DNA from: Candidatus Woesearchaeota archaeon
GTDB taxonomy: Archaea > Nanobdellota > Nanobdellia > Woesearchaeales > UBA10216
Assembly: GCA_016180195.1 (NCBI GenBank)
Contig: JACPBS010000004.1
Coordinates: 17,485-81,484 of the forward strand
DNA: 64,000 bases
Direction of reading: 5' to 3'
Below are positions 11,732-55,141 of the stretch, in pieces (within the stretch, counting starts at the first letter, position 1; every line of letters starts with the position of its first letter). The position numbers and the translations under genes are program-made. The notes beneath the pieces are model-generated. The model was not told the DNA's origin. It saw only the letters and a list, made by a program, of their open reading frames with translations, and made no database searches.

Positions 11732-11803
11732 ATGTTTTGTTTAGGAAACATGTTTAAAAAATTTATGCAATAAGTTTATAATTCCAGTCGAAAGGCTGTT
11801 TTA

Positions 11804-12186: not shown

Positions 12187-12819
12187 TTATTGTTTAAGGG
12201 CTTCCAGGGCTTTTGCCGCATCCTTCTCATTCACGACAAAAAGGGTGTCAGTCCAGCAACTCATGCTCTCCACTATATTTATCCCCCTGTCGCCAAATAC
12301 CGAATATAGGTATGCTATCACGCCGGGTGTCTCCTCTATTTCCTGAGGGCTTTTCACTATTATTTGCGTGAGGCCGTTGTTTATTTTGATTATTTCCCTG
12401 CTGAATTGCTTCTTTATGGTTTCAAGGAATTCCGATCCGGTTATTATCGTGACTGTATTCGCCCCTTCTATTATGTGTAATGTTTCCCTTTTCTTTTTTA
12501 TCTCCTTTTCAAGGTCTATCAGGCTGTTATGGTAAAGCCCTTTTTCCATTACAACCGCCATTATCCTGTCTTTTATCTCGATTTTGCTGTTTTTCAGTAT
12601 GTTGATTATCGCTTTTTCCTGCCCTGCCTCTCCCTTCTTTTTAGCAGCATACCTTCTGCATGCTATCAGTATCGCATCAAATTTTTTTATACCCAAATCG
12701 TGGCCAATTTGCCTGGACAGCGCAGAATAGTTTACCAAACCTTTTCTGATGCAGTCCCTGATGCTTGGCCTTTCACAGATGTATTTCTCGGTTAATTTTG
12801 TTATGTTCATAGCTACCAC
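12187..12819 (-). CDS. Putative regulator with N-terminal HTH and C-terminal ACT domain (COG2150-like)
   Basis: 210 aa. C-terminal PGVIAYLYSVFGDRGINIVESMSC is an ACT-like ligand-binding fold. Confidence 0.4.
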   Translation of the reverse strand: MVAMNITKLTEKYICERPSIRDCIRKGLVNYSALSRQIGHDLGIKKFDAILIACRRYAAKKKGEAGQEKAIINILKNSKIEIKDRIMAVVMEKGLYHNSLIDLEKEIKKKRETLHIIEGANTVTIITGSEFLETIKKQFSREIIKINNGLTQIIVKSPQEIEETPGVIAYLYSVFGDRGINIVESMSCWTDTLFVVNEKDAAKALEALKQ

Positions 12820-12847
12820 CGCAACAACTAACCAACAGCTATATAAT

Positions 12848-12892
12848 TGTTTTGTTTAGGACATTTTTGTCTATTTTGTCCTGTTTCAGGTA
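12848..12892 (+). repeat. 45-bp direct repeat, copy 1 (upstream of PIN/UPF0175 cassette), contains inverted repeat AGGACA-N13-TGTCCT
   Basis: attgttttgtttaggacatttttgtctattttgtcctgtttcagg. Its 42/45-identical partner is at 13819..13863. Confidence 0.85.
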
Positions 12893-12981
12893 ATCGGTTC
12901 CTCCAATGGAACAGAATGGAACCTTTGGTACGCCAACGGATGAAAATAAGGTTTCAGGTACTTTGGAGGATCTTGTAGTGT

Positions 12982-13539
12982 ATGCACAAAAAATTGTTTA
13001 AGAAACATTTTTATATTACAAAAGTACATCATTGTATTACATTGAAAAAGGCATTGGTTTTTGACACATCAACACTCATATTGCTGGCAAAAGCAACTAT
13101 TTTAAGGAATTTTGCAGGCTTCAATAGAATCACAATAACAAAAGAAATTATTTCGGAGGTCTTTTCAAAAGAAGGAGCAGAGGATGCAAAGATCATAAAA
13201 AAGCTTATTGCGGAAGGCCGGATAATTGAGGACATTGCCCCGGATACGGATTTAGGAATTGATTTCATGTTAGGGGAAGGTGAAGCCAAAGCCCTGAGCT
13301 TTGCTTTGAAAAGAAAAATCATATTGGCAACTGATGATTTGCGGGCAATTAGGGCATGCAAAGTGCTTGATGTAAGGTTTATTACCGCAATTCATTGCCT
13401 TATATCACTTTACAACAACAAAGCAATCGATCAGAGATTGGCTCTTGAGAAGTTGAAGACACTTGAAAAATACGGCAGGTATTCGGCTTCGATAATAAGG
13501 GACGCAAGAAGGATAATCGAAGGTGGAAAAAATGGCTGA
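12982..13539 (+). CDS. PIN-like nuclease domain protein (DUF3368-type), toxin-like partner of UPF0175
   Basis: 185 aa from ATG 12982. Alternative TTG at 13042 gives MKKALVFDTSTLILLAK, a typical PIN N-terminus. Conserved acidic residues D(27)/E/D(ATDD). Confidence 0.55.
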   Translation: MHKKLFKKHFYITKVHHCITLKKALVFDTSTLILLAKATILRNFAGFNRITITKEIISEVFSKEGAEDAKIIKKLIAEGRIIEDIAPDTDLGIDFMLGEGEAKALSFALKRKIILATDDLRAIRACKVLDVRFITAIHCLISLYNNKAIDQRLALEKLKTLEKYGRYSASIIRDARRIIEGGKNG

Positions 13540-13816
13540 TGTGGTAAGTTTCAGGTTTAAAAGTCACGAGCTTGAGCACATAAATAAGCTATCGGCAGCA
13601 AGAAAAACAGATAAGACGACTGCTGCAAGGGAGCTTATAGAATACGGCTGGATATACTATGTTATTCAGCAATACAAGGAAGGGAAGCTCTCATTGGAAA
13701 GAACGGCAAAGGAGCTGCATATTTCAGTCGGAGAGCTGATTGATTTGCTTGCAGATTTCGGGATAAAATCGCCAATTGCTTTTGAGGATTATCTTGAAGG
13801 TCTGAAGAACATTTGA
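13523..13816 (+). CDS. UPF0175 family antitoxin-like protein
   Basis: 97 aa. C-terminal KLSLERTAKELHISVGELIDLLADFGI matches the UPF0175 signature SLGKAAELAG.S...F...L...GI. Overlaps PIN gene by 17 nt. Confidence 0.6.
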   Translation: MEKMADVVSFRFKSHELEHINKLSAARKTDKTTAARELIEYGWIYYVIQQYKEGKLSLERTAKELHISVGELIDLLADFGIKSPIAFEDYLEGLKNI

Positions 13817-13818
13817 TT

Positions 13819-13863
13819 ATTGTTCTATTTAGGACATTTTTGTCTATTTTGTCCTGTTTCGGG
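13819..13863 (+). repeat. 45-bp direct repeat, copy 2 (2 nt after UPF0175 stop; promoter region of next gene)
   Basis: attgttctatttaggacatttttgtctattttgtcctgtttcggg. Confidence 0.85.
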
Positions 13864-13900
13864 CGATACGCTTTTAAGCACCTATCTAATCCAGAGAAAA

Positions 13901-14476
13901 ATGAAAGCAACCGGAGGATGGGTATACGGGCCAGCTACACGTGAGAGCTGTCAGTACAGGGGCAAGCTCGTGAAGGGTTACGGTTTTGGTAAGGGAGGAC
14001 TAGAGGTATTCGTCTCCGCTAATGAATACGCCCAGGCTGATGGGATTCTCGGATATGTTTACGGTCTAATCCTCAACGAATCAGTTATTGGAGATTCAGG
14101 CAAAAAATGGCAGGTCATGTACTCCGAGCAGTTTAAAACGATCGAGGCAATTCCTAAATCAGACCCGTTTGGTTTTCGAAAAGAGGGGGAAATTTATGGA
14201 AATGCAAGCCTTTCACCCGAGAAATGCTACGGCACCGGGAGCTATCCGTATGGTGGCCCTTATGCATCTCAAGGCGAACTTGAAGATCTTTTGTGGCTGA
14301 GGGATAATTTCCCTGGCTTGCCTATTCCAGAATATGTTGCCAAGGATATGCACAGGTGCTTTTCTAAAGCAATCGAATCCCTCGTCTTCGCCAAAAGCAT
14401 AAAGGTAGTTCGTCTTCCAAAGTTCATGGATGCGGCCATGCTTGATCCATCAGGCATTAAGATATCCTCGAATTAG
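13901..14476 (+). CDS. Hypothetical protein
   Basis: About 191 aa from internal Met (MKATGGWVYGP...). The ORF track start at 13820 would run through the repeat. Gly/aromatic-rich, no recognised motif. Confidence 0.4.
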   Translation: MKATGGWVYGPATRESCQYRGKLVKGYGFGKGGLEVFVSANEYAQADGILGYVYGLILNESVIGDSGKKWQVMYSEQFKTIEAIPKSDPFGFRKEGEIYGNASLSPEKCYGTGSYPYGGPYASQGELEDLLWLRDNFPGLPIPEYVAKDMHRCFSKAIESLVFAKSIKVVRLPKFMDAAMLDPSGIKISSN

Positions 14477-14484
14477 GTGTAAAA

Positions 14485-14988
14485 ATGATATCATTCAGGA
14501 AAGCCAACCAAGGGGATGCAAGGGCAATATGCAGCCTGATTTCCTCTTACCAGTTCAACAGAGATGGAACTGGAAGCCTTATCAGCATGCATGAGGCAGG
14601 GATTGTTGCTGTGATTGGGCAAAGCGGTGTTTTTGTTGTTGCTGAAAATGGAGAAGGTATAGTTGGTTGTTGTTCAATAGTTGAATATCCTATCAACGGA
14701 GAACGGTCTGCAGAAGTAAGGTCTCTTTCAGTTAGGAAGGAGTTCCAGTTGCAGGGTATTGGCAGTAAACTTGTGGGTTTATGCAAAGTTGAGGCTGAAA
14801 GTATGGGTATATCTGCTTTATACGCTCTGGTTCAACCTGAAAGACTCGAATTTTTCACAAAGCAGGGATTTGACCATGTTTATTTTCCCCAAGAAAAGAT
14901 CTGGAGGGATTGCTATAGGTGCCCTCGATATGGAAACAATTGCAACGAAATTCCTTTGGTCAATATAAATGGGGTGAATCAGAAATGA
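14485..14988 (+). CDS. GNAT N-acetyltransferase with C-terminal Cys cluster; possible short-form amino-acid (glutamate) N-acetyltransferase given arg context
   Basis: 167 aa. Motif A QLQGIGSKLV. C-terminal CYRCPRYGNNC. Stop overlaps argG start (ATGA). Confidence 0.55.
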   Translation: MISFRKANQGDARAICSLISSYQFNRDGTGSLISMHEAGIVAVIGQSGVFVVAENGEGIVGCCSIVEYPINGERSAEVRSLSVRKEFQLQGIGSKLVGLCKVEAESMGISALYALVQPERLEFFTKQGFDHVYFPQEKIWRDCYRCPRYGNNCNEIPLVNINGVNQK

Positions 14989-17840: not shown

Positions 17841-18057
17841 ATGTTGTGTCAAGTACCCCGGGCTAAAGCCCAGGGCGTGTTCTTGAGCACACAAATCAAG
17901 CTTTGCTTGATTGTGCCCATTTGAGCTATGCTCAAATTGGGTCTCAGAAATTGTCAAGCTTTGCTTGATTGTGCCCATTTGAGCTATGCTCAAATTGGGT
18001 CTCAGAAATTGCTCGTCCTTACTGCGCACTAAAGTGCCACAGATTACGTCGAGAGCA
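17841..18057 (+). repeat. Hairpin-rich intergenic repeat, family A copy 1 (contains a perfect 58-bp tandem duplication, 17896-17953 / 17954-18011)
   Basis: About 150 bp near-identical to 40241..40405. Built from consecutive palindromes: GGGCTaaAGCCC, AATCAAGCtttGCTTGATT, CCCATTTGAGCtatGCTCAAATTGGG, GCACTaaAGTGC. Confidence 0.85.
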
Positions 18058-18113
18058 ATTTCTGACATTTCAATTCTGAATTTTCCCATCAATTCCACAA
18101 CAGTATTAAGGAT

Positions 18114-21502: not shown

Positions 21503-22567
21503 ATGGCTTATATTGAATTAGAGGACAAAACTAGGTTTGAAGGCTTCTCTTTTGGTGCAGATAACTCGGTTTCAGGCGAGGTAGTGTTCAACACTGGTAT
21601 GGTGGGATATCCGGAAAGCCTTACGGATCCCAGCTACAGGGGCCAGATTCTTGTTCTTACTTATCCTTTGGTTGGCAATTACGGTGTTCCCAGAAACGAT
21701 ATTGACCGGTTAGGAATTCCAAGGAATTTCGAGTCAGGAAAAATCCAGGTTAGCGGCCTTATTGCCGCGGATTATTCAGGCAACTATAGCCATTGGAACG
21801 CTGTGAAAAGCCTCTCGCAATGGCTGAATGAGGAAGGCATTCCTGCTTTGACCGGGATTGATACCCGTATGCTGACAAAGAAGCTTCGTGAAAAAGGGGT
21901 TATGCTTGGGAAGATCGTGAATTTCGGCGACGTGAAACTTGATGACCCTAATTTGAGGAATCTTGTGGATGAAGTTTCAGTTAGTGAAAAAATAACATAT
22001 AGCTGCGGCGGAAGAAAAAAAGTTCTTCTGGTTGACTGCGGCGCCAAGAACAACATAACAAGATGCCTGATAAAAAGAAACTGCGGGGTGATAAAAGTGC
22101 CCTGGGATTATGATTTTCTTGCGGATAAAGAGCTTGATTTCGACGGCATCGTGATAAGTAACGGCCCTGGAGACCCTAAGATGTGCAGGAAGACAATAAG
22201 AAATGTTTCAGCTGCGATGAAAAAGGAAATCCCGATATTCGGAATATGCCTTGGAAACCAGCTGCTTGCATTGGCAGCGGGCGGAGACACTTACAAGCTG
22301 AAGTACGGGCATAGGAGCCAGAACCAGCCATGCATAAATAAGGAGACCGGGCGCTGCTACATAACTTCGCAAAACCACGGGTTCGCTGTTGACATGAAAA
22401 CGATGCCATCTGGATGGGATGAATTTTTTGTGAATGGGAATGACGGAACAAACGAGGGAATGATGCATAAGGATAAGCCATTCATGTCTTGCCAGTTTCA
22501 CCCGGAAGCTTCCTGCGGTCCGGTTGATACGGAATTCCTTTTTGATGATTTTTTGAGGTTGCTATGA
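21503..22567 (+). CDS. carA: Carbamoyl-phosphate synthase small (glutaminase) subunit
   Basis: 354 aa. Type-1 glutamine amidotransferase catalytic Cys in GICLGNQLLALA. C-terminal HPE. Confidence 0.9.
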   Translation: MAYIELEDKTRFEGFSFGADNSVSGEVVFNTGMVGYPESLTDPSYRGQILVLTYPLVGNYGVPRNDIDRLGIPRNFESGKIQVSGLIAADYSGNYSHWNAVKSLSQWLNEEGIPALTGIDTRMLTKKLREKGVMLGKIVNFGDVKLDDPNLRNLVDEVSVSEKITYSCGGRKKVLLVDCGAKNNITRCLIKRNCGVIKVPWDYDFLADKELDFDGIVISNGPGDPKMCRKTIRNVSAAMKKEIPIFGICLGNQLLALAAGGDTYKLKYGHRSQNQPCINKETGRCYITSQNHGFAVDMKTMPSGWDEFFVNGNDGTNEGMMHKDKPFMSCQFHPEASCGPVDTEFLFDDFLRLL

Positions 22568-23337
22568 CAAGCATTGCGAGGCTTTACGAAAAGAACGCAT
22601 TTATGCTTCCACCAATGAAGAGTCTGATTAGGCAGAAAATAATGAAAGGCGACTTTGTTGTAGATGCAGGTTGTGGAACTGGAGTGTATTCCGATATTCT
22701 AAGGAAGAAAGTGGGAGAACGAGGCAAGCTACTTGCAGTTGACAGGGACAAATCAATGGTTCAGTATTGCAAAAAGAAGCATCCAGACGTCGAAACTAAG
22801 CAGTTGGAAATAGAAAAACTGTCAAGGATTGTTAAAAACGCGGATGTTGTTTTTGCGAGCCTCGTCCTTCAGTTTTCAAGGCCCGAAGCAATAGCTGAAA
22901 TTCGAAAGGTGCTTAAGAAAGGCGGGAAACTTATATTCTCAATACCTCTTTACAGGACGGGGATAAACATTGCTATTGACAAACAAACCAAAAATTTTAT
23001 GGATGAACTGATAAGCAGGATGAATGAACAGGCAAAAAACATCGGCTGCAATAAGAAGGTTGCAGTAGAATATTCAAACACCAGGGAACAGCAGTTAAGG
23101 AAACTTCTAAATAAGAGCAGGTTTCGGATTTTGGAGTGGGTTGTTGTTCCGGTTGAGAAATCTGATTTCAATTTCATGAAAGAGTATTATAAGATTCCCT
23201 GGAGAAGCAGGAAAATGCTGGATCTTCCGTTCAGGTTAAGGTACAAGATTATTACTGATGCAATGAAGCTTGCTTTCAAAAAATATCCCAAATTCATGAT
23301 AACCCGTTATTATTTGTTTGGAGTTGCCCAAAAATGA
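22564..23337 (+). CDS. Class I SAM-dependent methyltransferase (Methyltransf_11-like)
   Basis: 257 aa. Motif I VVDAGCGTGVYS. Inserted between carA and carB. Confidence 0.6.
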   Translation: MTSIARLYEKNAFMLPPMKSLIRQKIMKGDFVVDAGCGTGVYSDILRKKVGERGKLLAVDRDKSMVQYCKKKHPDVETKQLEIEKLSRIVKNADVVFASLVLQFSRPEAIAEIRKVLKKGGKLIFSIPLYRTGINIAIDKQTKNFMDELISRMNEQAKNIGCNKKVAVEYSNTREQQLRKLLNKSRFRILEWVVVPVEKSDFNFMKEYYKIPWRSRKMLDLPFRLRYKIITDAMKLAFKKYPKFMITRYYLFGVAQK

Positions 23338-23843
23338 GTGAGGAAATGATTGATGTTGTGGATGATGAAGATAATATTGTCGGGATAGCTGATAGGGGAA
23401 AAATAATTGAAAAGGGTTTAACCCACAGGACATCATTTGTCATAGTTCTTGATCATTTCAAGAGGTTCCTCATCCAGAAAAGGTCGAGTTCAAAGAAGAT
23501 ATTTCCTGGATGCCGGGATTTGGGTGCTGCGGAAACCGTGTCAAGCGGTGAGTCTTACGAGCATGCTGCAATAAGGGCTTTGGAAGAGGAGCTTGGGATA
23601 AAAGGGTATACTGTGAATGAATTAACTATGCTTTTCGAAGTGAGATTCAGGTCCCCTTCTTACAGAACAAATACGCGGGTTTTCAAGCTGATGTACACCG
23701 GCCGAATAAGTATCCAGACAGACGAGGTGGATGAAATAAGGAATGCAAGCTGTTCTGAAATAGACGATCTGATTTCCAAAGGTGTTTTTGCGCCTGATGG
23801 TGCATTGATATTCAAAAGGATCCAAAATGGAAGAATTGATTGA
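23334..23843 (+). CDS. Nudix hydrolase (paralog 1)
   Basis: 169 aa. Degenerate Nudix box GESYEHAAIRALEEELGI. Confidence 0.65.
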   Translation: MSEEMIDVVDDEDNIVGIADRGKIIEKGLTHRTSFVIVLDHFKRFLIQKRSSSKKIFPGCRDLGAAETVSSGESYEHAAIRALEEELGIKGYTVNELTMLFEVRFRSPSYRTNTRVFKLMYTGRISIQTDEVDEIRNASCSEIDDLISKGVFAPDGALIFKRIQNGRID

Positions 23844-23872: not shown

Positions 23873-24100
23873 GTAACAAAAATCCGCCGCTCGGAGCTAT
23901 CCTCTCACTTCAATGGCGGATCCCAATTCGAACAGAGTTCAAATGGGCCAAATCACAAAGTGATTTGGGTTTTGGAACAATACACAAATTGAGCAAAGCT
24001 CAATTGTGCCCAATCGCAAAACGATTTGGGAATTTCGCCCTAAAGGGCGGAATTTCGCCCTAAAGGGCGGGGCTTTGAACCCAAGGCGAAATTTATTTGT
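23873..24100 (+). repeat. Hairpin-rich intergenic repeat, family B copy 1 (contains 20-bp tandem duplication 24031-24050 / 24051-24070)
   Basis: Palindromes ATCCGCC...GGCGGAT, CCAAATCACaaaGTGATTTGG, ATTGAGCaaaGCTCAAT, CCCAATCGcaaaaCGATTTGGG, CGCCCtaaaGGGCG. Shares a 28-nt block with 33623-33648 and a 30-nt block (inverted) with 39543-39572. Confidence 0.8.
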
Positions 24101-33559: not shown

Positions 33560-33700
33560 TCTTAGTGCCAACAACGGTTGGCGAGCCAATGGATGCCCCA
33601 TCCGGGGTGGCGAGAAGCTCCCAAATTGAGCAAAGCTCAATTGTGCCCGAAGCAAAAAAGCGTCCAACCATTATTGTTGGACAATCAGAAATTTCACTCA
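33560..33700 (+). repeat. Hairpin-rich intergenic repeat, family B copy 2 (partial)
   Basis: Contains aaattgagcaaagctcaattgtgccc (33623-33648), identical to 23986-24011, plus hairpins GCCAACaacgGTTGGC, CCCCatccGGGG and GTCCAACcattattgTTGGAC. Confidence 0.7.
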
Positions 33701-38268: not shown

Positions 38269-39500
38269 ACAAGGACTACAAGAAATCATACAAGACGATA
38301 GTTACAGACCATTTCCCGGAGACATTGAAGGTTTCTCTTGGAGGGAGGGAAATAACTTACAGGAAGAAATTGTGGAATTTAGGTAATGAAACTGTCGGGC
38401 TGAGGTATGGTGAGAATCCTGGCCAGGAGGCTGCTTTGTATGAGGCTGAGAATGCCAGTCTTGTTCTTGGCGAGTGCACTTATGTTTATGGGGATCCCCT
38501 TGTTAGCGGGATTTCAGAATCGGATATTCTTCAGGTTGGCAAGCATCCCAGCATGAACAACCTTACTGATGTTGATGCTGCCCTGAATATTTTGAGGTAT
38601 TTTGACAGGCCGACCGCGGTCATAATAAAGCACAACAACCCGAGCGGCGTTGCTTCGAGGGAGAGCATTGCTGATGCCTACACTGAAGCGAATCTTTGCG
38701 ATTCAATTGCTGCTTTCGGCGGGGTTGCTGTTTTCAACAGGGATGTTGACCGCGAAACCGCTTTAAGGATAGAGAAGAATTATCTGGAGGTTGTTTGCGC
38801 TCCTGGTTTTGACGAGGATGCACTTGAACTACTAAAGCAGAAAAAAAACCTGAGAATCATAAGGATAGGTAACATTGCAAACCTGAAGAAATTCTCAAGG
38901 TTTATTGATTTCAGGCCTTTGATGGATGGTGGATTGATACTTCAGCAATCGCTTCTTAATACAGTAAAAAGCACGAGTGATTTGGCGGTTGCCACTTCAA
39001 CCTTTGAAGGCAAGGAACACGCAATAAAAAGAAAGCCTGATGAAGCAGAGTATCGAGATCTGATTTTCGCTTGGAGGGTGCAGCAGGGGGTCACCAGCAA
39101 TTCTGTTATCTTTGTGAAGGATGAGTCAACCGTCGCAATAGGCACTGGAGAGCAGGACCGTGTTGGTGTTGCCAAGATTGCTGCTTTCAAGGCTTATGAG
39201 AAGTATGCTGCACGCCTGTCATTAGAAAAGTATGCAACCCCTTATTGGCTGCTTGATTCTGCTGAAAAGAAAAGTCTTATCGACAAGGAGGTTGAAAATG
39301 CTAAGGGCAACATATCAGGATCTGTCATGTCATCAGATGGCTTTTTCCCGTTTGCAGATACAGTTGAGGTTGCCGCAAGATACGGTGTCACAGCTATTGT
39401 TCAGCCCGGCGGATCCCTGAGGGATCATGAGAGCATTGAGGCCTGCAACAACCACAATATCAGTATGGTATTCACTGGCCAGAGGGCTTTCAAGCATTAG
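38265..39500 (+). CDS. purH: PurH C-terminal half: AICAR formyltransferase domain as separate ORF
   Basis: 411 aa. AICARFT blocks (GLRYGENPGQ, IKHNNPSG, SDGFFPF). Confidence 0.8.
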   Translation: MNKDYKKSYKTIVTDHFPETLKVSLGGREITYRKKLWNLGNETVGLRYGENPGQEAALYEAENASLVLGECTYVYGDPLVSGISESDILQVGKHPSMNNLTDVDAALNILRYFDRPTAVIIKHNNPSGVASRESIADAYTEANLCDSIAAFGGVAVFNRDVDRETALRIEKNYLEVVCAPGFDEDALELLKQKKNLRIIRIGNIANLKKFSRFIDFRPLMDGGLILQQSLLNTVKSTSDLAVATSTFEGKEHAIKRKPDEAEYRDLIFAWRVQQGVTSNSVIFVKDESTVAIGTGEQDRVGVAKIAAFKAYEKYAARLSLEKYATPYWLLDSAEKKSLIDKEVENAKGNISGSVMSSDGFFPFADTVEVAARYGVTAIVQPGGSLRDHESIEACNNHNISMVFTGQRAFKH

Positions 39501-39530
39501 CTACAATGAATTTCGCGGTTCAAATCCTCG

Positions 39531-39572
39531 ACCTTTAGGGCAAGGATAGCTCCGAGCGGCGGATTTTGTTAC
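39531..39572 (-). repeat. Family B repeat fragment (inverted), abutting HepT stop codon
   Basis: Reverse complement gtaacaaaatccgccgctcggagctatcct matches 23873-23903. Followed by a CCTAAAGG hairpin. Also contains the T-loop-like string GGTTCAAATCC (39517-39527). Confidence 0.65.
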
Positions 39573-39844
39573 TTTCTCCTTTCCAAATTCGACAATACCT
39601 TTTTTAGTTTCTGCTTCAGGTTTGGAATTTCTTTTTTAATCGCTGCCCAAACAAGATCATAGTCAGTTCCAAAATACGCGTGGATTAACCTGTCTCTCAT
39701 TCCGGACATGGATTTCCATTGGATTTCTTTGTATTGGTTTTTTATTTCTTCAGGCATGTATTTGGCAGCTTCTCCGATTATCTCGAATTTCCTTATAACT
39801 GCACTTGAAGTTTTCTCATCATTCTTCAGCTCCTCAAGGGTCAT
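39569..39844 (-). CDS. HepT-like toxin (DUF86, HEPN superfamily)
   Basis: 91 aa. HEPN R-x4-H-x-Y motif in MRDRLIHAYF. Confidence 0.7.
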   Translation of the reverse strand: MTLEELKNDEKTSSAVIRKFEIIGEAAKYMPEEIKNQYKEIQWKSMSGMRDRLIHAYFGTDYDLVWAAIKKEIPNLKQKLKKVLSNLERRK

Positions 39845-39915
39845 TTCTCCAATAAAGCTTTGAATCGAATCAATTGCTTACAAGATGTCCTTTACGAAAA
39901 GTTTAGAATCCCTTT

Positions 39916-40228
39916 TCATATCATGATAACCCCTTTGGTGATGCTATCTTTTAATTCAGGCCTTATTCCTCTTTCCGAAACGACATCCACCTTCATTTTT
40001 AGTTTTTCTTCAAGATAATTGCCTAAACCATTAAAATCAAAGAGGGTTGCATCGGTGTTAAACTTAACGAGAATATCTAAATCGCTGTTTTTTTTGTTGG
40101 CCTCTTGCAAAAGATCCGAAGATGCCAAGTTCCTTAACTTTATATCTTTTCTTTAGTTTAGGCATGTTTGATTCCAACGTATTTCGAATTTGTTGTAGAT
40201 TCTTCATTTTCACTGTTTTATCGTACAT
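39916..40228 (-). pseudogene. MNT-type minimal nucleotidyltransferase (antitoxin partner of HepT) disrupted by a frameshift in an A8 homopolymer
   Basis: One frame encodes MYDKTVKMKNLQQIRNTLESNMPKLKKRYKVKELGIFGSFARGQQKK. The adjacent frame continues NSDLDILVKFNTDATLFDFNGLGNYLEEKLKMKVDVVSERG.... The GS-x-ARG and DLD motifs are split across a T8 run at 40088-40095 (A8 on the coding strand). Seven A would give an intact 103-aa MNT. Confidence 0.7.
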
Positions 40229-40240
40229 TACTTGTTATAA

Positions 40241-40405
40241 AAATCTTGCTATGTGTCAAGAACCCGGGCTAAAGCCCAGGGCGTGTTCTTGAGCACACAA
40301 ATCAAGCTTTGCTTGATTGTGCCCATTTGAGCTATGCTCAGATTGGGTCTCAGAAATTGCTCGTCCTTACTGCGCACTAAAGTGCCACAGATTGCGTCGA
40401 GAGCA
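40241..40405 (+). repeat. Hairpin-rich intergenic repeat, family A copy 2
   Basis: Near-identical to 17841-18057 but with a single copy of the 58-bp unit. Lies in the purF upstream region. Confidence 0.85.
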
Positions 40406-40479
40406 CAAATAAACGCTTGGCGTTTATTGTGCAATAAACCGAAGCATTTTCCGCGTTGTATTAGGGGTGTTTTTGATTT

Positions 40480-41890
40480 GTGTGGTATTTTTGCGGTAAT
40501 TGGTAGCAGTCAGGCAGCCGCAGAGCTGTATATTGGCTTGACTCATCTTCAGCATAGGGGTCAGGATGCTGCAGGGATTGCTGCTTCTGACCGCTCAGGC
40601 GGTCTTAGGATTTTCAAGGGCAAGGGGCTTGCCCTGGATATTTTCAGCGAGGAAACAATACGCGATCTGGGCGGGTTTATGGGCATTGCCCATAATCGTT
40701 ACCCGACTGCTGGAGTTGGTGACTCTACCGAATACCAGCCTTTTTCTGATGGCGAGGTTTCAATTGCTTTTAATGGAAATATCATTAATTATCCGAGCTT
40801 GAAATCTGCAATTGAGCAGCAGGGCAGGAAATTCTGTTCTAGCTCTGATGGCGAGCTTCTGCTTTGTATTTTTGCGGACGCTTACAGGAAGGGCGGGTTT
40901 TTCCATGCTGTAAGGGAAGTCCAGGAGAAACTTGTTGGAGGGTATTCTGTTGTGGGTGTTGTTGAGGGGAAGGGGATTTTTGCCTTCAAGGACCCTAATG
41001 GGATAAGGCCATTGATAATGGGTAGACGGGGTGGCCCTGATGTAGGTTATGCTTTCGCTTCTGAAAGCATTGCTTTGTCAGTTGATGGTTATAATAGTTT
41101 GCGCGATTTGAGGAACGGCGAAGCTGTTTTTGTTGGAAGCGATTTGAAGATTGAATCTAAGGTTATTATTGGCAGGGATCATGCCCCTTGCATCTTTGAG
41201 TACGTATATTTTTCCTCTGTTGAGTCTGTTCTCAACGGAATGCCTGTTTATAGTGTGAGGAGAGGGCTTGGAAAGGCTTTGGCTAATAAGGTTAAGGAGC
41301 TTTGGCCTGATATGGGGATTGATGTTGTCATACCTGTTCCTGATACTAGCAGGCCTGCCGCTGTTTCGCTTGCGCAGTCTCTTGGGGTTCCTTATGAGGA
41401 GGGTTTGGTGAAGAACAGGTATATTGGCCGTACTTTTATCATGCCATCGCAGAAGATTAGGGAAAGCGCCCTGAAGGTTAAGCTTAAGCCTATCGAGTCA
41501 GTAATAAGGGGAAAGAACGTGATGGTTGTTGATGATTCCATTGTGAGGGGAACCACTTCAAGAAGGATCGTCAGGCTTCTGAGGGATTTCGGGGCGAGGA
41601 AGGTTTTCCTCCTGAGCACTTTTCCTCCAATAAGGCATCCTTGTGTTTACGGGATTGATTTTACCAATGAGAATGAGCTTATTGCTCATGGAAAAACAAT
41701 TGATGATGTTGAGAGGGAGATTGGTGCTGATAGGCTTGTGTATATGGATCCTGATGCTTTGGGAAGGATCGTTGGAATAAATGGCATCTGCATGGCTTGT
41801 CTTAACGGCATTTATCCCACTTCCATGGATCATGCAAGGGAGATGCAGGAGCAGAGGCTGAAGGATAAGGGGAGGATGGTGGAAGGATGA
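40480..41890 (+). CDS. purF: Amidophosphoribosyltransferase
   Basis: The longest ORF starts at 40334 but runs through the repeat. The TTG at 40480 gives M-CGIFAVIG with the catalytic N-terminal Cys of class II glutamine amidotransferases. PRTase motif VMVVDDSIVRGTT. C-terminal Cys ligands of a 4Fe-4S-type PurF (CMACLNGIYP). Confidence 0.85.
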
Positions 41891-43188
41891 AGGTTCTCTT
41901 GGTCGGTTCCGGGGCCAGGGAGAATGCGATTTCTGATGCCCTTATCGCCGGGCAGGCTGATGTTTTCGCCTTCATGTCCAACAGGAACCCGGGCATTTGC
42001 AGGTACTGCAGGAAATTCGAAATAGGGGATGTAAAGGATGTGCTTTCAATCTGTAAGTTTGCCTTAGCTTCAAAACCTGATTTGGCTGTTATCGGTCCCG
42101 AAGCTCCTTTGGCTGCAGGTGTTGTTGATGAGTTGCATAAGATCGGCGTTAGCTGCTTTGGCCCGACTAGGGAGCTTGCGCAGCTGGAATCCAGCAAATC
42201 ATTCACAAGGTGTCTGCTTGAGAAATACAACATCAATGCAAGCCCGGAATTCAGGATTTTTACAAGGAAAAGTCCTGAAGCTGAGATAAGGTCTTTTTTA
42301 AGGGACCTGGGTGAATATGTGATCAAGCCTGACGGGCTCACGGGTGGCAAGGGTGTTAAGGTTTTTGGCGAGCATATTGATAATGACGATGATGCAGTTG
42401 ATTACTGCAATGAGATCTTTGGCAACAATTCTTCAGTTGTAATTGAGGAGAAGCTTGATGGTGAGGAATTCAGCCTGCAGTCAATTACCGACGGAAAAAC
42501 AGTTATAGACTGTCCTCCTGTTCAGGACCATAAGAGGGCTTTTGATAATGACATCGGGGCAAATACCGGAGGCATGGGCAGTTATGGCTGCGAGGATCAT
42601 CTTCTTCCCTTCCTGAAACGCGAGCACATAGATCACGCACACAATATCACAGTTCAAGTTGCCTCGGCTTTGAAAAAGGAGATCGGCCCTTACAAGGGGG
42701 TGATGTATGGCGGGTTCATCCTCACTAAGAAGGGAGTGAGGCTTATAGAGTACAATGCGAGGTTTGGAGATCCTGAAGCGATGAATGTGATTCCTCTGAT
42801 GAAGACCAACTTCGTGGATGTCTGCAATGCGGTTATCAATTCAGAGCTGCATAAGATTGAATTCAGGAAATTGGCATCTGTTTGCAAGTATGTTGTTCCT
42901 GAAGGCTATCCGGAAAATCCAAGACCTGGAAGGATTGAAGTTCCGGCAAGCGCGCCTGCCTTAACATTCTACGCTGCCGTTGATGAGAAGGCAGATGGCA
43001 TTTATGCCACGAAGTCAAGGGCAGTTGGATTTGTCGGCATGGCGCCGGGCATTGAGGAGGCTGAACGCATCGCTGAGCAGGCTGCTTCAAGGGTAAAAGG
43101 ATTCGTTTTCCACAGAAAGGATATCGGAACAAGAGCGCTGCTGCAGAAAAGGATTGCGCATATGAAAGGCATTATGGAGGGAAAATGA
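41887..43188 (+). CDS. purD: Phosphoribosylamine-glycine ligase
   Basis: 433 aa. ATP-grasp fold with GARS N-terminal, ATP-grasp and C-terminal domains. Confidence 0.9.
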   Translation: MKVLLVGSGARENAISDALIAGQADVFAFMSNRNPGICRYCRKFEIGDVKDVLSICKFALASKPDLAVIGPEAPLAAGVVDELHKIGVSCFGPTRELAQLESSKSFTRCLLEKYNINASPEFRIFTRKSPEAEIRSFLRDLGEYVIKPDGLTGGKGVKVFGEHIDNDDDAVDYCNEIFGNNSSVVIEEKLDGEEFSLQSITDGKTVIDCPPVQDHKRAFDNDIGANTGGMGSYGCEDHLLPFLKREHIDHAHNITVQVASALKKEIGPYKGVMYGGFILTKKGVRLIEYNARFGDPEAMNVIPLMKTNFVDVCNAVINSELHKIEFRKLASVCKYVVPEGYPENPRPGRIEVPASAPALTFYAAVDEKADGIYATKSRAVGFVGMAPGIEEAERIAEQAASRVKGFVFHRKDIGTRALLQKRIAHMKGIMEGK

Positions 43189-53075: not shown

Positions 53076-53348
53076 AGCTTTCGGAAAAGTTATAGAAAAA
53101 AATATAAATAATTATTAATTCCCTGTATAAAATGTACTTGACGGCCTGATTATAACGTAAGATATTACGGTCCTTGGGGGGTTCCTACTCGTGGAAGAAA
53201 GGGAGGGCCTAGCCTTGCTGAAAGGATAGTTTCCAATCCCGGATACGCGATAGGAGAGCATTTATCCACTTTGGAAGGCCAGAGTTCTTGTTGTGGCGGC
53301 GGAAAAGCATATAATACATTGGAGAATGCTATTGAAATTGCTAGAAGG

Positions 53349-53412
53349 GCTCCTTTCAAGGATTATAGAAATCGCAGTAACTAATTTTATTGCTCAAGTG
53401 GGTTTAATGCCC
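53349..53412 (+). repeat. 64-bp direct repeat, copy 1 (9 nt beyond HEPN stop)
   Basis: gctcctttcaaggattatagaaatcgcagtaactaattttattgctcaagtgggtttaatgccc. 63/64 identical to 54584-54647. Confidence 0.9.
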
Positions 53413-53421
53413 TGTCATAAT

Positions 53422-53928
53422 CTAATGATTTGATTGCATCAGCTCTTCTGCCTTATTGATGAAGTCCAAAACCTTGTTTTCGTATTCTTCTATTGTTTCA
53501 TTGTTGAATTTTATCGTTGTTGCATAGCTTGCATCATGCCTGTCATCTTTAAGCTGTGTGTAGAGCTCAGCATCTTCCTTGCTTATGGAAAGCTCGTTTA
53601 GCAGCTTTGCCTCTTCTCTTGTTATCGCATACTCTTTGATGAGTAGGAGTATTGTCGCATAGTGGTTCTTTGATGTGTACTTTTTTCTTGTTATCAAAGC
53701 CAATGCAGAATGGTACAGTGAGTAGTACAATGTTACGACAAGCCAGTCATTGAACTTGTGCTGCTCTTTGTTGAGCTTATAGAACTCCATGTTATGCCTT
53801 GCTTTTTTCAGGTGTGATTGGGCTAGCTCAGGGTTGCTTCCTATTTTCCTTATGTGCTTTTTTTCCGTGAAAAAGACAATTTCCTGCTCAAGGAATTTCT
53901 TGTCGGAGAACAGCTTATTGATATCCAT
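53422..53928 (-). CDS. HEPN-domain protein (toxin-like partner of MNT)
   Basis: Likely start at the internal ATG at 53928 (MDINKLFSDKK...). The ORF track extends to 54003. HEPN-type R-x4-H motif context (KKARHNMEFY). Confidence 0.6.
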   Translation of the reverse strand: MDINKLFSDKKFLEQEIVFFTEKKHIRKIGSNPELAQSHLKKARHNMEFYKLNKEQHKFNDWLVVTLYYSLYHSALALITRKKYTSKNHYATILLLIKEYAITREEAKLLNELSISKEDAELYTQLKDDRHDASYATTIKFNNETIEEYENKVLDFINKAEELMQSNH

Positions 53929-54490
53929 CCAATTGTACCTCGTAAAAGCTTTGTTCTTTATGGATTGGAAATCCTGTCTTTCTTGCCTGAATGATGATGT
54001 CATCTTTATTATCCTTGAATTGGGATATTGTTGCGTTGAAAAGTGATAAAGGATGCTTCGAGGTTATTTCGGCCTCTTTCTTATTTATCGACAAGTCTGG
54101 CTTTTTTCCTGATACGACAAGAATGTCAATGTCGCTTTCATTTGTTTCCTCTTTTCTTGAAGCAGAGCCGAAGAGGATTATGGTGAAGATGTTTTCAGGG
54201 ATATTCTTCAGGAAGTTTTTGAGCGGTACTTTTACGTTTGGGCTCAGGCTGTTGAATTTTCGCATTGCTATCTCGGAGAATTTGAGGGCAAAGAGTTTTT
54301 TGTCCTTTATCTTATAGAAGGTGTTTGCCTTGGTCTTTTCTTCATCCAGGACGTTTGCTTTGGTGAGCTTTTCCAGGGCGTTTTGCAGGGAGCTATGGGA
54401 GAGTATTGTGTGCTCCTTGATCTGGTTGTAATAGAGCTTAGGCTGCTTTAGCTCAAAAAATGCCTCGTATATCTTCTCTTCTGCGTTCAT
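53915..54490 (-). CDS. MNT-type nucleotidyltransferase with N-terminal winged-helix domain
   Basis: 191 aa. Nucleotidyltransferase motifs ILFGSASRKEETNESDIDILVV. Confidence 0.75.
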   Translation of the reverse strand: MNAEEKIYEAFFELKQPKLYYNQIKEHTILSHSSLQNALEKLTKANVLDEEKTKANTFYKIKDKKLFALKFSEIAMRKFNSLSPNVKVPLKNFLKNIPENIFTIILFGSASRKEETNESDIDILVVSGKKPDLSINKKEAEITSKHPLSLFNATISQFKDNKDDIIIQARKTGFPIHKEQSFYEVQLDGYQ

Positions 54491-54583
54491 TTTGTGATTG
54501 TAAGCGATTGATATTTAAATGCTTTACCAATTTTTGGTATAAGTTTACCATATTTTGGTATTGATTCATGTTTTGCCTGAAGT

Positions 54584-54647
54584 GCTCCTTTCAAGGATTA
54601 TAGAAATCGCAGTAACTAATTTTATTGCTCAAATGGGTTTAATGCCC
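54584..54647 (+). repeat. 64-bp direct repeat, copy 2 (93 nt upstream of MNT start; overlaps the last codons of ORF 54629..55141)
   Basis: gctcctttcaaggattatagaaatcgcagtaactaattttattgctcaaatgggtttaatgccc. Confidence 0.9.
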
Positions 54648-55141
54648 CTGAGTTCAAGCAAGGTGAGTGTGCTTACCCCTGTTGCAAGGACATTTAATAA
54701 TACTAGTTCATATGCTTGTTTAGTCAAATTCGATTCAGAATCCTGCAGTCGGTAATTCGCCATTTGCAGCATATTCAATGTGTCTAAAGGGGTGAATGAT
54801 TCGTTTGTTTCATGTTCTGCAAGCTTTGAATCTGCCATGTAAAGCATGTTTTCAAGACCATCTCTGCCAGTATCCGGCATTTTTGTTAATGCTTTGTATA
54901 TATTTCCCCTTGCTTTTTCTATTGCTGCGATCGAGATGCTTTTTCCCGTGTAATATTCTAATAGCTCAGACCTAGCATGATCAATCTCGATCCGGGTTTG
55001 CTTTCCACGGTCTAGTTGTTGTGCTATGTAATCAACAGGCGGTTTGAAGAATGCCAGCGAAGCATATATAACTCCTGCAGTGCCTAATATTGTTGCTGTT
55101 GTCGTTAAAGCTTTTCTTGCATCCATAATAATCACTTTCAC
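54629..55141 (-). CDS. Hypothetical membrane-anchored protein
   Basis: 170 aa. N-terminal TM segment (TTTATILGTAGVIYASLAFF). No known motif. Confidence 0.4.
   Translation of the reverse strand: MKVIIMDARKALTTTATILGTAGVIYASLAFFKPPVDYIAQQLDRGKQTRIEIDHARSELLEYYTGKSISIAAIEKARGNIYKALTKMPDTGRDGLENMLYMADSKLAEHETNESFTPLDTLNMLQMANYRLQDSESNLTKQAYELVLLNVLATGVSTLTLLELRGIKPI

What the first reader, a model, noticed from the sequence alone, without database searches (positions are those of the whole stretch)
12848..13863. PIN(DUF3368)/UPF0175 toxin-antitoxin cassette bracketed by 45-bp direct repeats carrying AGGACA-N13-TGTCCT
A near-identical 45-bp sequence (42/45) occurs 90 bp upstream of the PIN gene (12848-12892) and again 2 bp after the UPF0175 stop (13819-13863). 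The second copy also lies just upstream of the next gene (13901..14476). The repeat contains the inverted repeat AGGACAtttttgtctattttGTCCT, which looks like an operator. The leader between copy 1 and the PIN gene has its own short direct repeats (aatggaac x2), typical of TA autoregulation sites. The geometry matches the HEPN/MNT cassette at 53349-54647. That cassette also has a long DR, a 93-bp leader, two genes, and then the DR again within 9 bp of the stop. This suggests both cassettes entered by the same Campbell-type or site-specific integration that duplicated a 45-64 bp target, which was the promoter of a resident gene. The alternative is that small TA modules captured the promoter.
Basis: seen in the sequence. 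Interest (0 to 1): 0.65.

Follow-up and report, generated by a model that had tools for sequence, protein, structure and literature searches.

The report
Toxin-antitoxin cassette inserted with duplicated promoter
In a Woesearchaeota (DPANN archaeon) genome, a small foreign toxin-antitoxin gene pair sits in the middle of a conserved arginine-gene promoter, and about 45 bp of that promoter are duplicated on either side; related genomes have one copy and no cassette, which makes this an archaeal, toxin-antitoxin example of the poorly understood "insertion with long target duplication".

Summary
A 45-48 nt direct repeat (12846-12890 / 13819-13863; 42/45, 33-nt perfect core) brackets a PIN(DUF3368-type)/UPF0175-like gene pair. 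A second repeat (53338-53412 / 54573-54647; 71/75) brackets a HEPN/MNT pair. These are the two longest local direct repeats in the window; shuffles give at most 22 nt.

The empty-site test succeeded for cassette 1. Two related Woesearchaeota genomes (ACT-domain protein 70-71% identical) and about 40 more distant ones carry one copy of this sequence. It lies between the divergent ACT-domain gene and arginine-biosynthesis genes, with no TA cassette.

The repeat is therefore a resident, deeply conserved promoter/operator module, not a TA operator. The cassette has its own conserved TATA box and operator, and is low in GC. No integrase, transposase, tRNA or terminal inverted repeats are nearby, and the two repeat pairs are unrelated in sequence.

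Best reading: horizontally acquired TA cassettes inserted with long target duplication, a mode described for bacterial restriction-modification systems. How the duplication arose is not resolved. The gene at 13901 is not a conserved resident gene: it is an orphan absent from relatives. Moderate interest; a new member of a known kind.

The parts
12187..12810 (-). Resident gene for a protein with an N-terminal helical (DUF7523) domain and tandem ACT domains. It is transcribed away from the repeat; a TATA-like TATATAA lies at 12840-12846.
   Evidence: Pfam ACT_7/ACT_9/DUF7523 just below cut-off. 553 homologues, mostly Woesearchaeota. The model's C-terminal 145 residues match aspartokinase regulatory (ACT) domains.
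12846..12890 (.). Direct repeat 1, copy 1. This is the resident copy of the conserved inter-TATA promoter box, contiguous with the ACT gene promoter.
   Evidence: Homologous single copies in L020, L022, L068 and about 40 other loci.
12891..13007 (+). Left arm of the insert: non-coding DNA of unknown origin containing GGTTCC...GGAACC and aatggaac x2. It is not conserved in homologous cassettes.
13008..13041 (+). The cassette's own promoter: TATA box TTTTTATATTAC (13008-13019) and an operator-like segment up to the start codon. Conserved in homologous PIN/UPF0175 cassettes from other genomes.
   Evidence: Alignment with L005, L001, L004 and L187 upstream regions.
13042..13539 (+). PIN-domain (DUF3368-type) toxin gene, 165 aa, TTG start.
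   Evidence: NCBI call HYU11_00295 and precomputed PF11848. AlphaFold pLDDT 93, with top PDB matches all PIN domains. Invariant D8, E39, E81, D98, D99. The current Pfam hmmscan gave no hit for this protein itself.
13532..13816 (+). UPF0175-like antitoxin gene, 94 aa, overlapping the PIN stop by 8 nt.
   Evidence: Pfam UPF0175 E=1e-4, 22 bits against a cut-off of 27.9. The PIN-then-95-aa gene order is conserved in all homologous loci. 81-86% identical to partners of PIN proteins that are only 53-64% identical.
13819..13863 (.). Direct repeat 1, copy 2. It is contiguous with the resident rightward (arginine operon) core promoter.
13864..13900 (+). Remainder of the resident arginine-operon promoter (GGGCGATACG, TATA-like CTTTTAAGC at 13871-13879). 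The spacing to the ATG (48 nt from the box) is the same as in relatives.
13901..14476 (+). Orphan ORF (191 aa) between the resident promoter and the GNAT gene. It is absent from relatives and bracketed by AAAAATGA (13897-13904 and 14481-14488).
53338..53412 (.). Direct repeat 2, copy 1. It contains a pseudo 3' end (GIKPT*) of the 170-aa gene.
53422..54003 (-). HEPN-domain gene (193 aa).
   Evidence: Pfam HEPN E=2.6e-4, 21.6 bits against a cut-off of 22.
53915..54490 (-). MNT-type nucleotidyltransferase gene with an N-terminal winged-helix region (191 aa).
   Evidence: Pfam Polbeta and NTP_transf_2 above cut-off. NCBIfam MntA_antitoxin weak hit.
54491..54572 (-). Cassette 2's own promoter region: TATA-like ATTTAAATAT (54511-54520) and two palindromes of the form TACCA-N5-TGGTA (54525-54539, 54547-54561).
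   Evidence: Read directly from the sequence.
54573..54647 (.). Direct repeat 2, copy 2. It contains the true 3' end and stop codon of the 170-aa gene (54629..55141, minus strand).

Best explanation
Both cassettes are horizontally acquired, self-contained toxin-antitoxin modules, each with its own promoter and operator. Each was inserted into the chromosome by an event that duplicated a stretch of the target: about 45 bp for the PIN/UPF0175 pair and about 75 bp for the HEPN/MNT pair. This is 'insertion with long target duplication'.

For cassette 1 the target was the conserved box between the two TATA boxes of a bidirectional promoter. That promoter drives an ACT-domain gene (a probable amino-acid-sensing regulator) on one side and the arginine-biosynthesis operon on the other. 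Because the box was duplicated, each of the two host promoters kept its own full copy. This is probably why the insertion was tolerated.

Shown: the repeats; the single copy without a cassette in relatives; the foreign (low-GC) character of the inserts; the absence of recombinase genes; and the lack of similarity between the two repeat pairs.

Inferred (about 40% of my belief): how the duplication arose. My preferred route is homology-driven single-crossover ('pop-in', Campbell-type) integration of a circular DNA. That circle would carry the cassette plus a copy of the target segment picked up in a related donor. No site-specific enzyme is needed. The box is nearly identical across species, so it could act as a portable landing pad.

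Once in place, post-segregational killing by the TA pair would oppose loss. The flanking repeats would allow excision or amplification by homologous recombination.
For: - Repeats are far beyond chance.
- Empty site: L020 (GCA_053533055.1) and L022 (GCA_053533195.1) have the ACT gene and the GNAT-argF-argG-argH operon 110-129 bp apart. Between them is one copy of ATTGTTCTATTTAGGACATTTTTGTTTATTTTGTCCTGTTTGGG or its variant, with no TA genes.
- The same box is present once, in the same orientation, upstream of the ACT gene in about 45 of 85 Woesearchaeota/Nanoarchaeota loci. It is usually 37 nt from the ACT start and is followed by argG, argB-like, OTCase-like or GNAT genes.
- The promoter after copy 2 keeps the native sequence and the native 48-nt spacing to the first ATG.
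- The cassette has its own TATA box and operator, conserved in four unrelated genomic contexts that lack flanking repeats.
- Both inserts are 38.6-38.7% GC against 44.7% for the window, in the lowest 0.6-2% of same-size windows.
- No integrase or transposase in the cassettes or the flanking genes, no tRNA, and no similarity between repeat 1 and repeat 2.
- Cassette 2: copy 2 holds the real 3' end of the 170-aa gene and copy 1 holds a pseudo 3' end, so the repeated DNA is host DNA.
- Hints for the homologous route: mismatches between copies cluster in the outer 9-12 nt (about 25% divergence there, about 1% in the cores). The two bases that distinguish the left end of copy 2 (TTCTA) are those of relative L020, while copy 1 (TTTTG) matches L022 and the consensus.
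- Precedent: long, variable target duplications flanking restriction-modification units without mobility genes (Furuta et al. 2010, PMC2853133; Mruk & Kobayashi 2014, PMC3874152).
Against: - The relatives with the single copy are distant (70% protein identity), not strains of the same species. Ancient insertion followed by repeat-mediated loss in relatives cannot be formally excluded.
- No empty site could be found for cassette 2, because its flanking genes have no detectable relatives.
- Short-read Logan contigs from 6-7 samples all break inside the repeat cores. Population-level empty sites or circles therefore could not be seen or excluded.
- The Campbell route needs a donor that already had the cassette next to the same segment, so it does not explain the first event.
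- The mismatch pattern is also explained by selection keeping the box core intact in both copies.
- Four homologous cassettes elsewhere have no flanking repeats, so the repeats are not a constant property of this TA family.
Confidence: 0.75

Rival explanations
1. De novo duplication without homology. The chromosome was nicked on the two strands 45-75 bp apart, or a replication fork switched template to foreign DNA and returned upstream of where it left. The linear cassette was joined in, and fill-in synthesis copied the intervening target twice. This is like a transposon target-site duplication, but long and variable in length.
For: - The repeat lengths differ (45 and 75 bp) and the two sequences are unrelated, as expected for a process that does not read the sequence.
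- This is the type of model behind the published restriction-modification cases, where double-strand breakage is invoked.
- The orphan next door is bracketed by an 8-nt repeat, AAAAATGA, which could be a short version of the same process.
- It explains a first insertion, which the Campbell route does not.
Against: - No enzyme or precedent is known in archaea for such long staggered breaks.
- Copies made by fill-in start out identical. Yet the outer 9-12 nt of both repeat pairs are about 25% diverged while the cores are perfect. This needs extra assumptions, namely selection on the core and enough time.
- Microhomology at the junctions cannot be checked without the donor sequence.
Confidence: 0.3
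2. Site-specific integration. A tyrosine or serine recombinase encoded elsewhere in the genome or on a helper element inserted a circular cassette at an att-like site, leaving attL and attR.
For: Direct repeats of 40-80 bp are typical of attL/attR pairs. The cassettes are small enough to be non-autonomous passengers.
Against: - The two repeat pairs share no sequence, so one recombinase would not serve both.
- No integrase is found in the cassettes or within about 5 genes on either side.
- No tRNA gene is present.
- Repeat 1 is a host promoter box conserved in genomes without the cassette.
- Homologous cassettes elsewhere have no such repeats.
Confidence: 0.07
3. No insertion-linked duplication. 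The two copies are simply two instances of a regulon box that precedes several arginine-related operons, and the TA pair happens to lie between two such promoters. Alternatively, the TA module or the host copied the promoter to regulate the downstream gene.
For: The box is a widespread regulatory element. In L060 three box-containing promoter modules precede different genes.
Against: - In the three nearest relatives a single box serves both divergent promoters.
- The two window copies are identical over 33 nt and similar over 45-48 nt. The similarity ends before either TATA box, so copy 1 has no rightward core promoter after it.
- The DNA between the copies is low-GC and absent from relatives.
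- Cassette 2 shows the same architecture with a repeat that is not a promoter.
Confidence: 0.06
4. Assembly artefact. A roughly 1-kb circular DNA sharing 33-49 nt with the chromosome was threaded into the contig by the assembler.
For: In k=31 Logan assemblies the cassette is a separate 1000-nt contig (12858..13857). All chromosomal contigs stop in the repeat core. In two samples the core is joined to the orphan side only (L016, L017).
Against: - The breaks are exactly what a 33-nt repeat does to a k=31 graph, so they say nothing either way.
- A 973-bp replicon with no replication gene is implausible.
- The same artefact would have to occur twice within 64 kb.
- Each repeat copy carries its own flanking variants, consistent with two distinct chromosomal junctions.
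Confidence: 0.03

Closest known systems
Insertion with long target duplication of restriction-modification gene units (Nobusato et al. 2000, Gene 259:99; Furuta, Abe & Kobayashi 2010, PMC2853133)
   Same: - A small 'addiction-type' gene unit with no mobility genes.
- Flanked by direct repeats of tens to hundreds of bp that are unique in the genome.
- The repeats are single-copy at the corresponding site of a related genome.
- Repeat length and sequence differ from case to case.
- The repeat may overlap the 3' end of a flanking gene.
- The insert has deviant GC content.
   Different: - The cargo is a type II (PIN/UPF0175) or type VII-like (HEPN/MNT) toxin-antitoxin pair, not R and M genes.
- The host is a DPANN archaeon. 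In Furuta et al. no archaeal case survived their screen.
- The comparison genomes here are other species, not strains.
- One target is a deeply conserved regulatory box.
Campbell-type ('pop-in') integration of circular DNA by a single homologous crossover
   Same: It gives exactly this product: the insert flanked by two direct copies of the shared segment, each copy a hybrid of incoming and resident sequence. It is reversible by recombination between the copies.
   Different: The shared segment is only 45-75 bp. No circular form or donor has been observed. It needs a prior event that put host DNA on the circle.
VapBC-like PIN toxin-antitoxin modules of the DUF3368/UPF0175 type
   Same: - PIN fold with conserved acidic residues.
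- A small partner gene overlapping by 8 nt.
- Its own promoter with a palindromic segment between the TATA box and the start codon.
   Different: - The gene order is toxin first, then the UPF0175-like gene, in all homologues seen here.
- The partner is more conserved than the toxin.
- Activity has not been tested.
Integron gene cassettes and integrase-borne islands (attC/attI or attL/attR)
   Same: Compact cassettes, often toxin-antitoxin pairs, bounded by repeats that begin right after the stop codon.
   Different: - The repeats are copies of the local target, not a cassette-borne recombination site.
- No integrase is present.
- The repeats of the two cassettes are unrelated to each other.

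Membership tests
Insertion with long target duplication (criteria of Furuta et al. 2010) | Inserted unit flanked by direct repeats longer than 30 bp | tested here: met
   45-48 nt (44/48) and 75 nt (71/75).
Insertion with long target duplication (criteria of Furuta et al. 2010) | The repeat aligns once, without the insert, at the corresponding site of a related genome | tested here: met
   Met for cassette 1 in L020, L022 and L068 and many more distant loci, though these are other species. For cassette 2 no relatives of the flanking genes could be found.
Insertion with long target duplication (criteria of Furuta et al. 2010) | Insert shorter than 20 kb, with no integrase or transposase in or next to it; repeat not a tRNA/att site and not a multi-copy element | tested here: met
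   Inserts are 0.93 and 1.16 kb. Pfam on cassette and flanking genes finds no mobility genes. No tRNA in the window. Only two copies of each repeat in the 64-kb window. The rest of the genome was not available.
Insertion with long target duplication (criteria of Furuta et al. 2010) | Cargo contains both R and M gene homologues | tested here: not met
   The cargo is PIN + UPF0175-like, and HEPN + MNT. The same mode of insertion, with a different class of addiction module.
PIN-domain (VapC-like, DUF3368) toxin with UPF0175 antitoxin | PIN fold with the conserved acidic residues | tested here: met
   pLDDT 93 model. Foldseek top hits are Nob1, AF0591, SSO1118 and VapC4 PIN domains. Invariant D8, E39, E81, D98, D99. 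Precomputed PF11848 hits, but no hit in the current Pfam hmmscan.
PIN-domain (VapC-like, DUF3368) toxin with UPF0175 antitoxin | Adjacent co-oriented small gene of the UPF0175 family | tested here: inconclusive
   UPF0175 hit of 22 bits is below the 27.9 cut-off. A close homologue (P0144) carries a weak precomputed UPF0175 hit. The gene pairing is conserved in all homologous loci.
PIN-domain (VapC-like, DUF3368) toxin with UPF0175 antitoxin | Toxicity of the PIN protein and its neutralisation by the partner | not testable with these tools
   Needs expression experiments.
HEPN/MNT (type VII-like) toxin-antitoxin pair | Minimal nucleotidyltransferase gene next to a HEPN-domain gene | tested here: met
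   Polbeta and NTP_transf_2 are above cut-off. HEPN scores 21.6 bits against a cut-off of 22 (borderline). The genes overlap.
Integrase-mediated integrative element (attL/attR) | Recombinase gene in the element or next to it, and a common att core | tested here: not met
   No recombinase found. Repeat 1 and repeat 2 are unrelated. A recombinase acting in trans from elsewhere in the genome cannot be excluded.
DNA transposon / MITE | Terminal inverted repeats and a short fixed-length target duplication | tested here: not met
   No inverted repeats at the cassette ends. The duplications are 45 and 75 bp.

The most novel reading that the evidence does not exclude
Toxin-antitoxin cassettes in DPANN archaea may be mobile elements in their own right, moving between genomes without any dedicated recombinase. 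Each cassette would carry a short piece of host DNA and use the host's homologous recombination to pop in and out. In the case of cassette 1 that piece is a regulatory box nearly identical across species. Conserved cis-regulatory boxes would then double as cross-species landing pads, and each insertion would automatically preserve the regulation of both neighbouring genes. Two repeat-flanked cassettes within 64 kb, and a third promoter-module duplication around inserted genes at the same type of box in another genome (L060), hint that the process may be common in this group.
Probability: 0.2. Interest if true: 0.7.

Novelty: new member of a known kind. Interest (0 to 1): 0.45.

Why it matters
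How small addiction modules with no transposase or integrase spread through chromosomes is poorly understood. 'Insertion with long target duplication' has been documented since 2000 only for bacterial restriction-modification systems, and its mechanism is still unknown.

This window supplies two clean examples with toxin-antitoxin cargo in an archaeon. One has an empty site in relatives, and its target is a deeply conserved promoter box. That gives a concrete system with defined junctions and diagnostic bases, plus public read sets in which excision, circles or empty sites can be sought.

It also shows how an insertion into a bidirectional promoter can be harmless when the shared operator is duplicated. 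As a by-product, it exposes a candidate arginine-regulon operator and regulator in Woesearchaeota.

Tried and rejected
1. Homologues of the 13901 protein, to find empty sites: only the protein itself was found. The ACT-domain neighbour was used instead, and that worked.
2. Population-level empty sites or circles in Logan assemblies. All contigs from 6-7 samples break in the repeat cores because k=31 is shorter than the 33/49-nt cores. The result is uninformative. In two samples the core is attached only to the orphan side (L016, L017), which is not decisive.
3. Empty site for cassette 2. The 170-aa neighbour has no relatives in JGI metagenomes. The best purQ relatives are only 54% identical, and none has the neighbouring genes.
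4. The same TA cassette elsewhere with other repeats. Four different genomic contexts (L001/L003/L004, L005, L184, L187) have no flanking repeats.
5. Viral carriers: no relative of the PIN or MNT proteins in IMG/VR.
6. The idea that the duplication was originally longer. The 158 nt after copy 1 show no significant similarity to the native promoter, the orphan or the GNAT 5' regions.
7. The open frame before repeat 2 (53142-53384) as a real convergent gene. It has no start codon except a TTG giving 37 aa, no Rfam match and no unusual fold. I therefore do not claim that repeat 2 covers two gene ends.
8. The 18-nt repeat at 42532/43713 lies inside purD/purT and is a chance match. The repeat in L084 reflects paralogous Lrp-type genes, and the one in L072 looks like a hairpin element.
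9. Mine et al. 2009 (ccdO157 between folA and apaH) could not be read. Whether a bacterial TA case with target duplication is already published remains unchecked.
Full report
**Source and observation**

The window comes from a Candidatus Woesearchaeota (DPANN) metagenome-assembled genome. The PIN gene, its partner and the next gene are NCBI HYU11_00295, 00300 and 00305, on a 170,554-bp contig.

The reported repeat is real. In register the copies are 12846-12890 and 13819-13863, giving 42/45 identity (44/48 if extended to 12843/13816), with a perfect 33-nt core.

The second pair is 53338-53412 / 54573-54647 (71/75, 49-nt perfect core).

These are the two longest local direct repeats in the window. 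In 30 dinucleotide-preserving shuffles the longest local repeat was 15-22 nt.

The inverted repeat AGGACA-N13-TGTCCT is present. However, 11% of random 45-mers of this window contain a perfect 6-nt inverted repeat.

**The cargo**

- **PIN gene.** The first gene most likely starts at TTG 13042. This is NCBI's call, and it is homologous to the ATG of relatives (ACATTGAAAAAG versus ACATGAAAAAG).
- **Family assignment.** The current Pfam library gave no hit for the protein, although precomputed tables list PF11848/DUF3368. I therefore modelled it. The model has pLDDT 93, and its best PDB matches are all PIN domains: Nob1, AF0591, SSO1118 and VapC4. D8, E39, E81, D98 and D99 are invariant in 19 homologues.
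- **Partner gene.** The partner (13532-13816) overlaps the PIN stop by 8 nt and gives a sub-threshold UPF0175 hit.
- **Conserved pairing.** The PIN-then-95-aa arrangement is conserved in every homologous locus. The partner is more conserved than the toxin: 81-86% against 53-64% identity.
- **Cassette 2.** It encodes a nucleotidyltransferase with a winged-helix N-terminus and a borderline HEPN protein.
- **Own control regions.** Each cassette carries its own. For cassette 1 this is a TATA box at 13008-13019 plus a segment up to the start codon. Both are conserved upstream of homologous cassettes in four unrelated contexts. For cassette 2 it is a TATA-like element and two TACCA-N5-TGGTA palindromes at 54511-54561.
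- **The 'aatggaac' repeats** are not conserved in homologues.

**The empty-site test**

The 13901 protein has no homologue, so I used the ACT-domain neighbour (12187..12810, minus strand).

In the two nearest genomes, L020 (GCA_053533055.1) and L022 (GCA_053533195.1), the ACT protein is 70-71% identical. There the ACT gene and a GNAT-argF-argG-x-argH operon are directly divergent, 110-129 bp apart. The intergenic DNA contains exactly one copy of the repeat:
- L020: ATTGTTCTATTTAGGACATTTTTGTTTATTTTGTCCTGTTTGGG
- L022: ATGTTTTGTTTAGGACATTATTGTCCTTTTTGTCCTGTTTAGG

In both it is followed by GGTCCATA, a TTTTAAAC TATA-like box and the operon's ATG. No TA genes are there.

A scan of one genome per species returned 80 further Woesearchaeota/Nanoarchaeota loci. 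About 45 of 85 loci have the box once, always in the same orientation. It is usually 37 nt from the ACT start and sits in front of argG, argB-like, OTCase-like or GNAT genes. The consensus is TATAAATGTTTTGTTTnGGACATTTTTGTTTATTTTtgttt..GGgCAtcAGgTTTAAAAA.

The repeat is therefore a resident, deeply conserved promoter module of the arginine genes. The duplicated part is precisely the stretch between the two TATA boxes.

The palindrome is found only in the nearest relatives. The family-wide signature is GGACA plus two TTTTTGTTT units.

The neighbouring protein has tandem ACT domains like the aspartokinase regulatory domain, behind a small helical N-terminal domain. That it is the regulator binding this box is an inference.

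**What the insertion did**

After copy 2 the native promoter continues, with the native 48-nt spacing to the first ATG. Copy 1 adjoins the ACT gene's TATA box. After copy 1 comes unrelated DNA with no similarity to the native promoter. Each host promoter thus kept one full box.

The first ORF after copy 2 is not the GNAT gene but an orphan that relatives lack. It is bracketed by AAAAATGA at 13897-13904 and 14481-14488.

Both cassettes are 38.6-38.7% GC against 44.7% for the window, in the lowest 0.6-2% of same-size windows. This fits foreign origin.

In cassette 2, copy 2 contains the true stop and last codons of the 170-aa gene (54629..55141). Copy 1 contains a pseudo-copy (GIKPT* instead of GIKPI*), so the repeated DNA is again host DNA. 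The open frame in front of copy 1 lacks a start codon, and I do not count it as a gene. It has no RNA-family match either.

**Mechanism**

Site-specific recombination is unlikely, for four reasons:
- The two repeat pairs share nothing.
- There is no integrase or transposase in the cassettes or their neighbours.
- There is no tRNA.
- There are no terminal inverted repeats.

The architecture matches 'insertion with long target duplication'. This was described for restriction-modification units in bacteria. There, repeats of about 46 to more than 400 bp flank the unit and are single in the empty strain. The authors suspected double-strand breakage and proposed that the repeats allow amplification and release. 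No archaeal case passed their screen (PMC2853133; PMC3874152).

How the duplication arises is unknown in the field, and it is not resolved here. I favour homologous single-crossover integration of a circle that carried the target segment from a related donor. Three points lean that way:
- The differences between copies cluster in the outer 9-12 nt (about 25% divergence there, about 1% in the cores).
- The left end of copy 2 carries the variant seen in L020, while copy 1 carries the L022/consensus variant.
- The box is conserved well enough across species to serve as homology.

Selection on the core would give a similar pattern, however, and the route cannot explain a first insertion. A long staggered break with fill-in, or template switching, remains a strong rival.

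**Limits**

- The empty sites are in other species, not strains.
- Logan short-read assemblies of 6-7 samples contain the same sequences at 99.9-100% identity. All contigs stop in the repeat cores: ACT side ends at 12884, the cassette contig spans 12858..13857, the orphan side starts at 13828 or 13831, and the purQ side ends at 53378. This is what k=31 does at 33/49-nt repeats, so neither empty sites nor circles can be seen or excluded.
- No relatives of the genes next to cassette 2 exist in the searched collections.
- Homologous PIN cassettes in four other contexts lack flanking repeats. The repeats therefore mark particular, probably recent, insertions rather than the family.

**Verdict**

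The details need correction, as set out above. This is a new member, with TA cargo and an archaeal host, of a known but mechanistically unexplained kind of gene mobility. Interest is moderate.

Noticed in passing
window 12840-12890 and 13819-13900; loci L020, L022, L024-L103 upstream of the ACT gene: A bidirectional promoter module of about 75 nt is conserved at the DNA level across at least 33 Woesearchaeota/Nanoarchaeota genomes whose ACT proteins are only 50-70% identical. Consensus: TATAAATGTTTTGTTTnGGACATTTTTGTTTATTTT...GGGCATCAGGTTTAAAAA. It lies between an ACT-domain gene and arginine-biosynthesis genes (argG, argB-like, OTCase-like, GNAT). It is a candidate arginine-regulon operator, with the small-helical-domain + 2xACT protein as candidate regulator.
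   Followed up: partly
window 13897-14488: The orphan ORF 13901..14476 has no homologue in 5.8 billion proteins. It occupies the exact position of the GNAT start codon of relatives and is bracketed by the 8-nt repeat AAAAATGA (13897-13904, 14481-14488). The argF gene that lies between GNAT and argG in relatives is missing here.
   Followed up: partly
L060 1518-1576 and 3219-3277 (Woesearchaeota RIFCSPLOWO2_12_FULL_38_19): A 59-nt promoter module (box plus TATA, 51/59 identical) is duplicated around a two-gene insert (unknown 256-aa protein + Asp/Glu racemase) in front of argC. The downstream copy starts right after the racemase stop codon, and a third box lies at position 481. This may be an independent insertion with promoter duplication at the same kind of site; no empty-site control was found.
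   Followed up: partly
window 17850-18060, 23900-24080, 33620-33650, 40250-40430: Arrays of REP-like hairpin elements occur in several intergenic regions. Examples are ACAAATCAAGCTTTGCTTGATTGTGCCCA and CCCATTTGAGCTATGCTCAAATTGGG. They include a 104-nt segment 98% identical at 17954 and 40302, and a perfect 27-nt repeat at 23985 and 33622.
   Followed up: no
window 13008-13044; L005 3960-4003; L001 3960-4003; L187 170-207: Homologous PIN/UPF0175 cassettes from unrelated contexts share a promoter with a palindrome between the TATA box and the start codon: TTTATATATTAC-AAAGTAtaCTTTAGTATTAC-ATG. This is the likely autoregulation site. In the window the ATG is replaced by TTG.
   Followed up: partly
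window 11733-11746: The left 14 nt of the box (TGTTTTGTTTAGGA) recur directly next to the start codon of the MJ0538-family gene, in the divergent region shared with a GNAT gene. This is at about the level of chance for 14-mers, but it coincides with the box.
   Followed up: no
L016 and L017 (Logan SRR12113390, SRR4343430), starting at window 13828: In two samples the shared 33-nt core is assembled together with the orphan side only. This could mean that the junction into the cassette leader is rare or absent there (an empty-site subpopulation), or it could just reflect low coverage.
   Followed up: partly
window 22500-23500 and 39300-40550: Two further low-GC patches fall in the same bottom 2% as the two cassettes. 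They were not examined.
   Followed up: no
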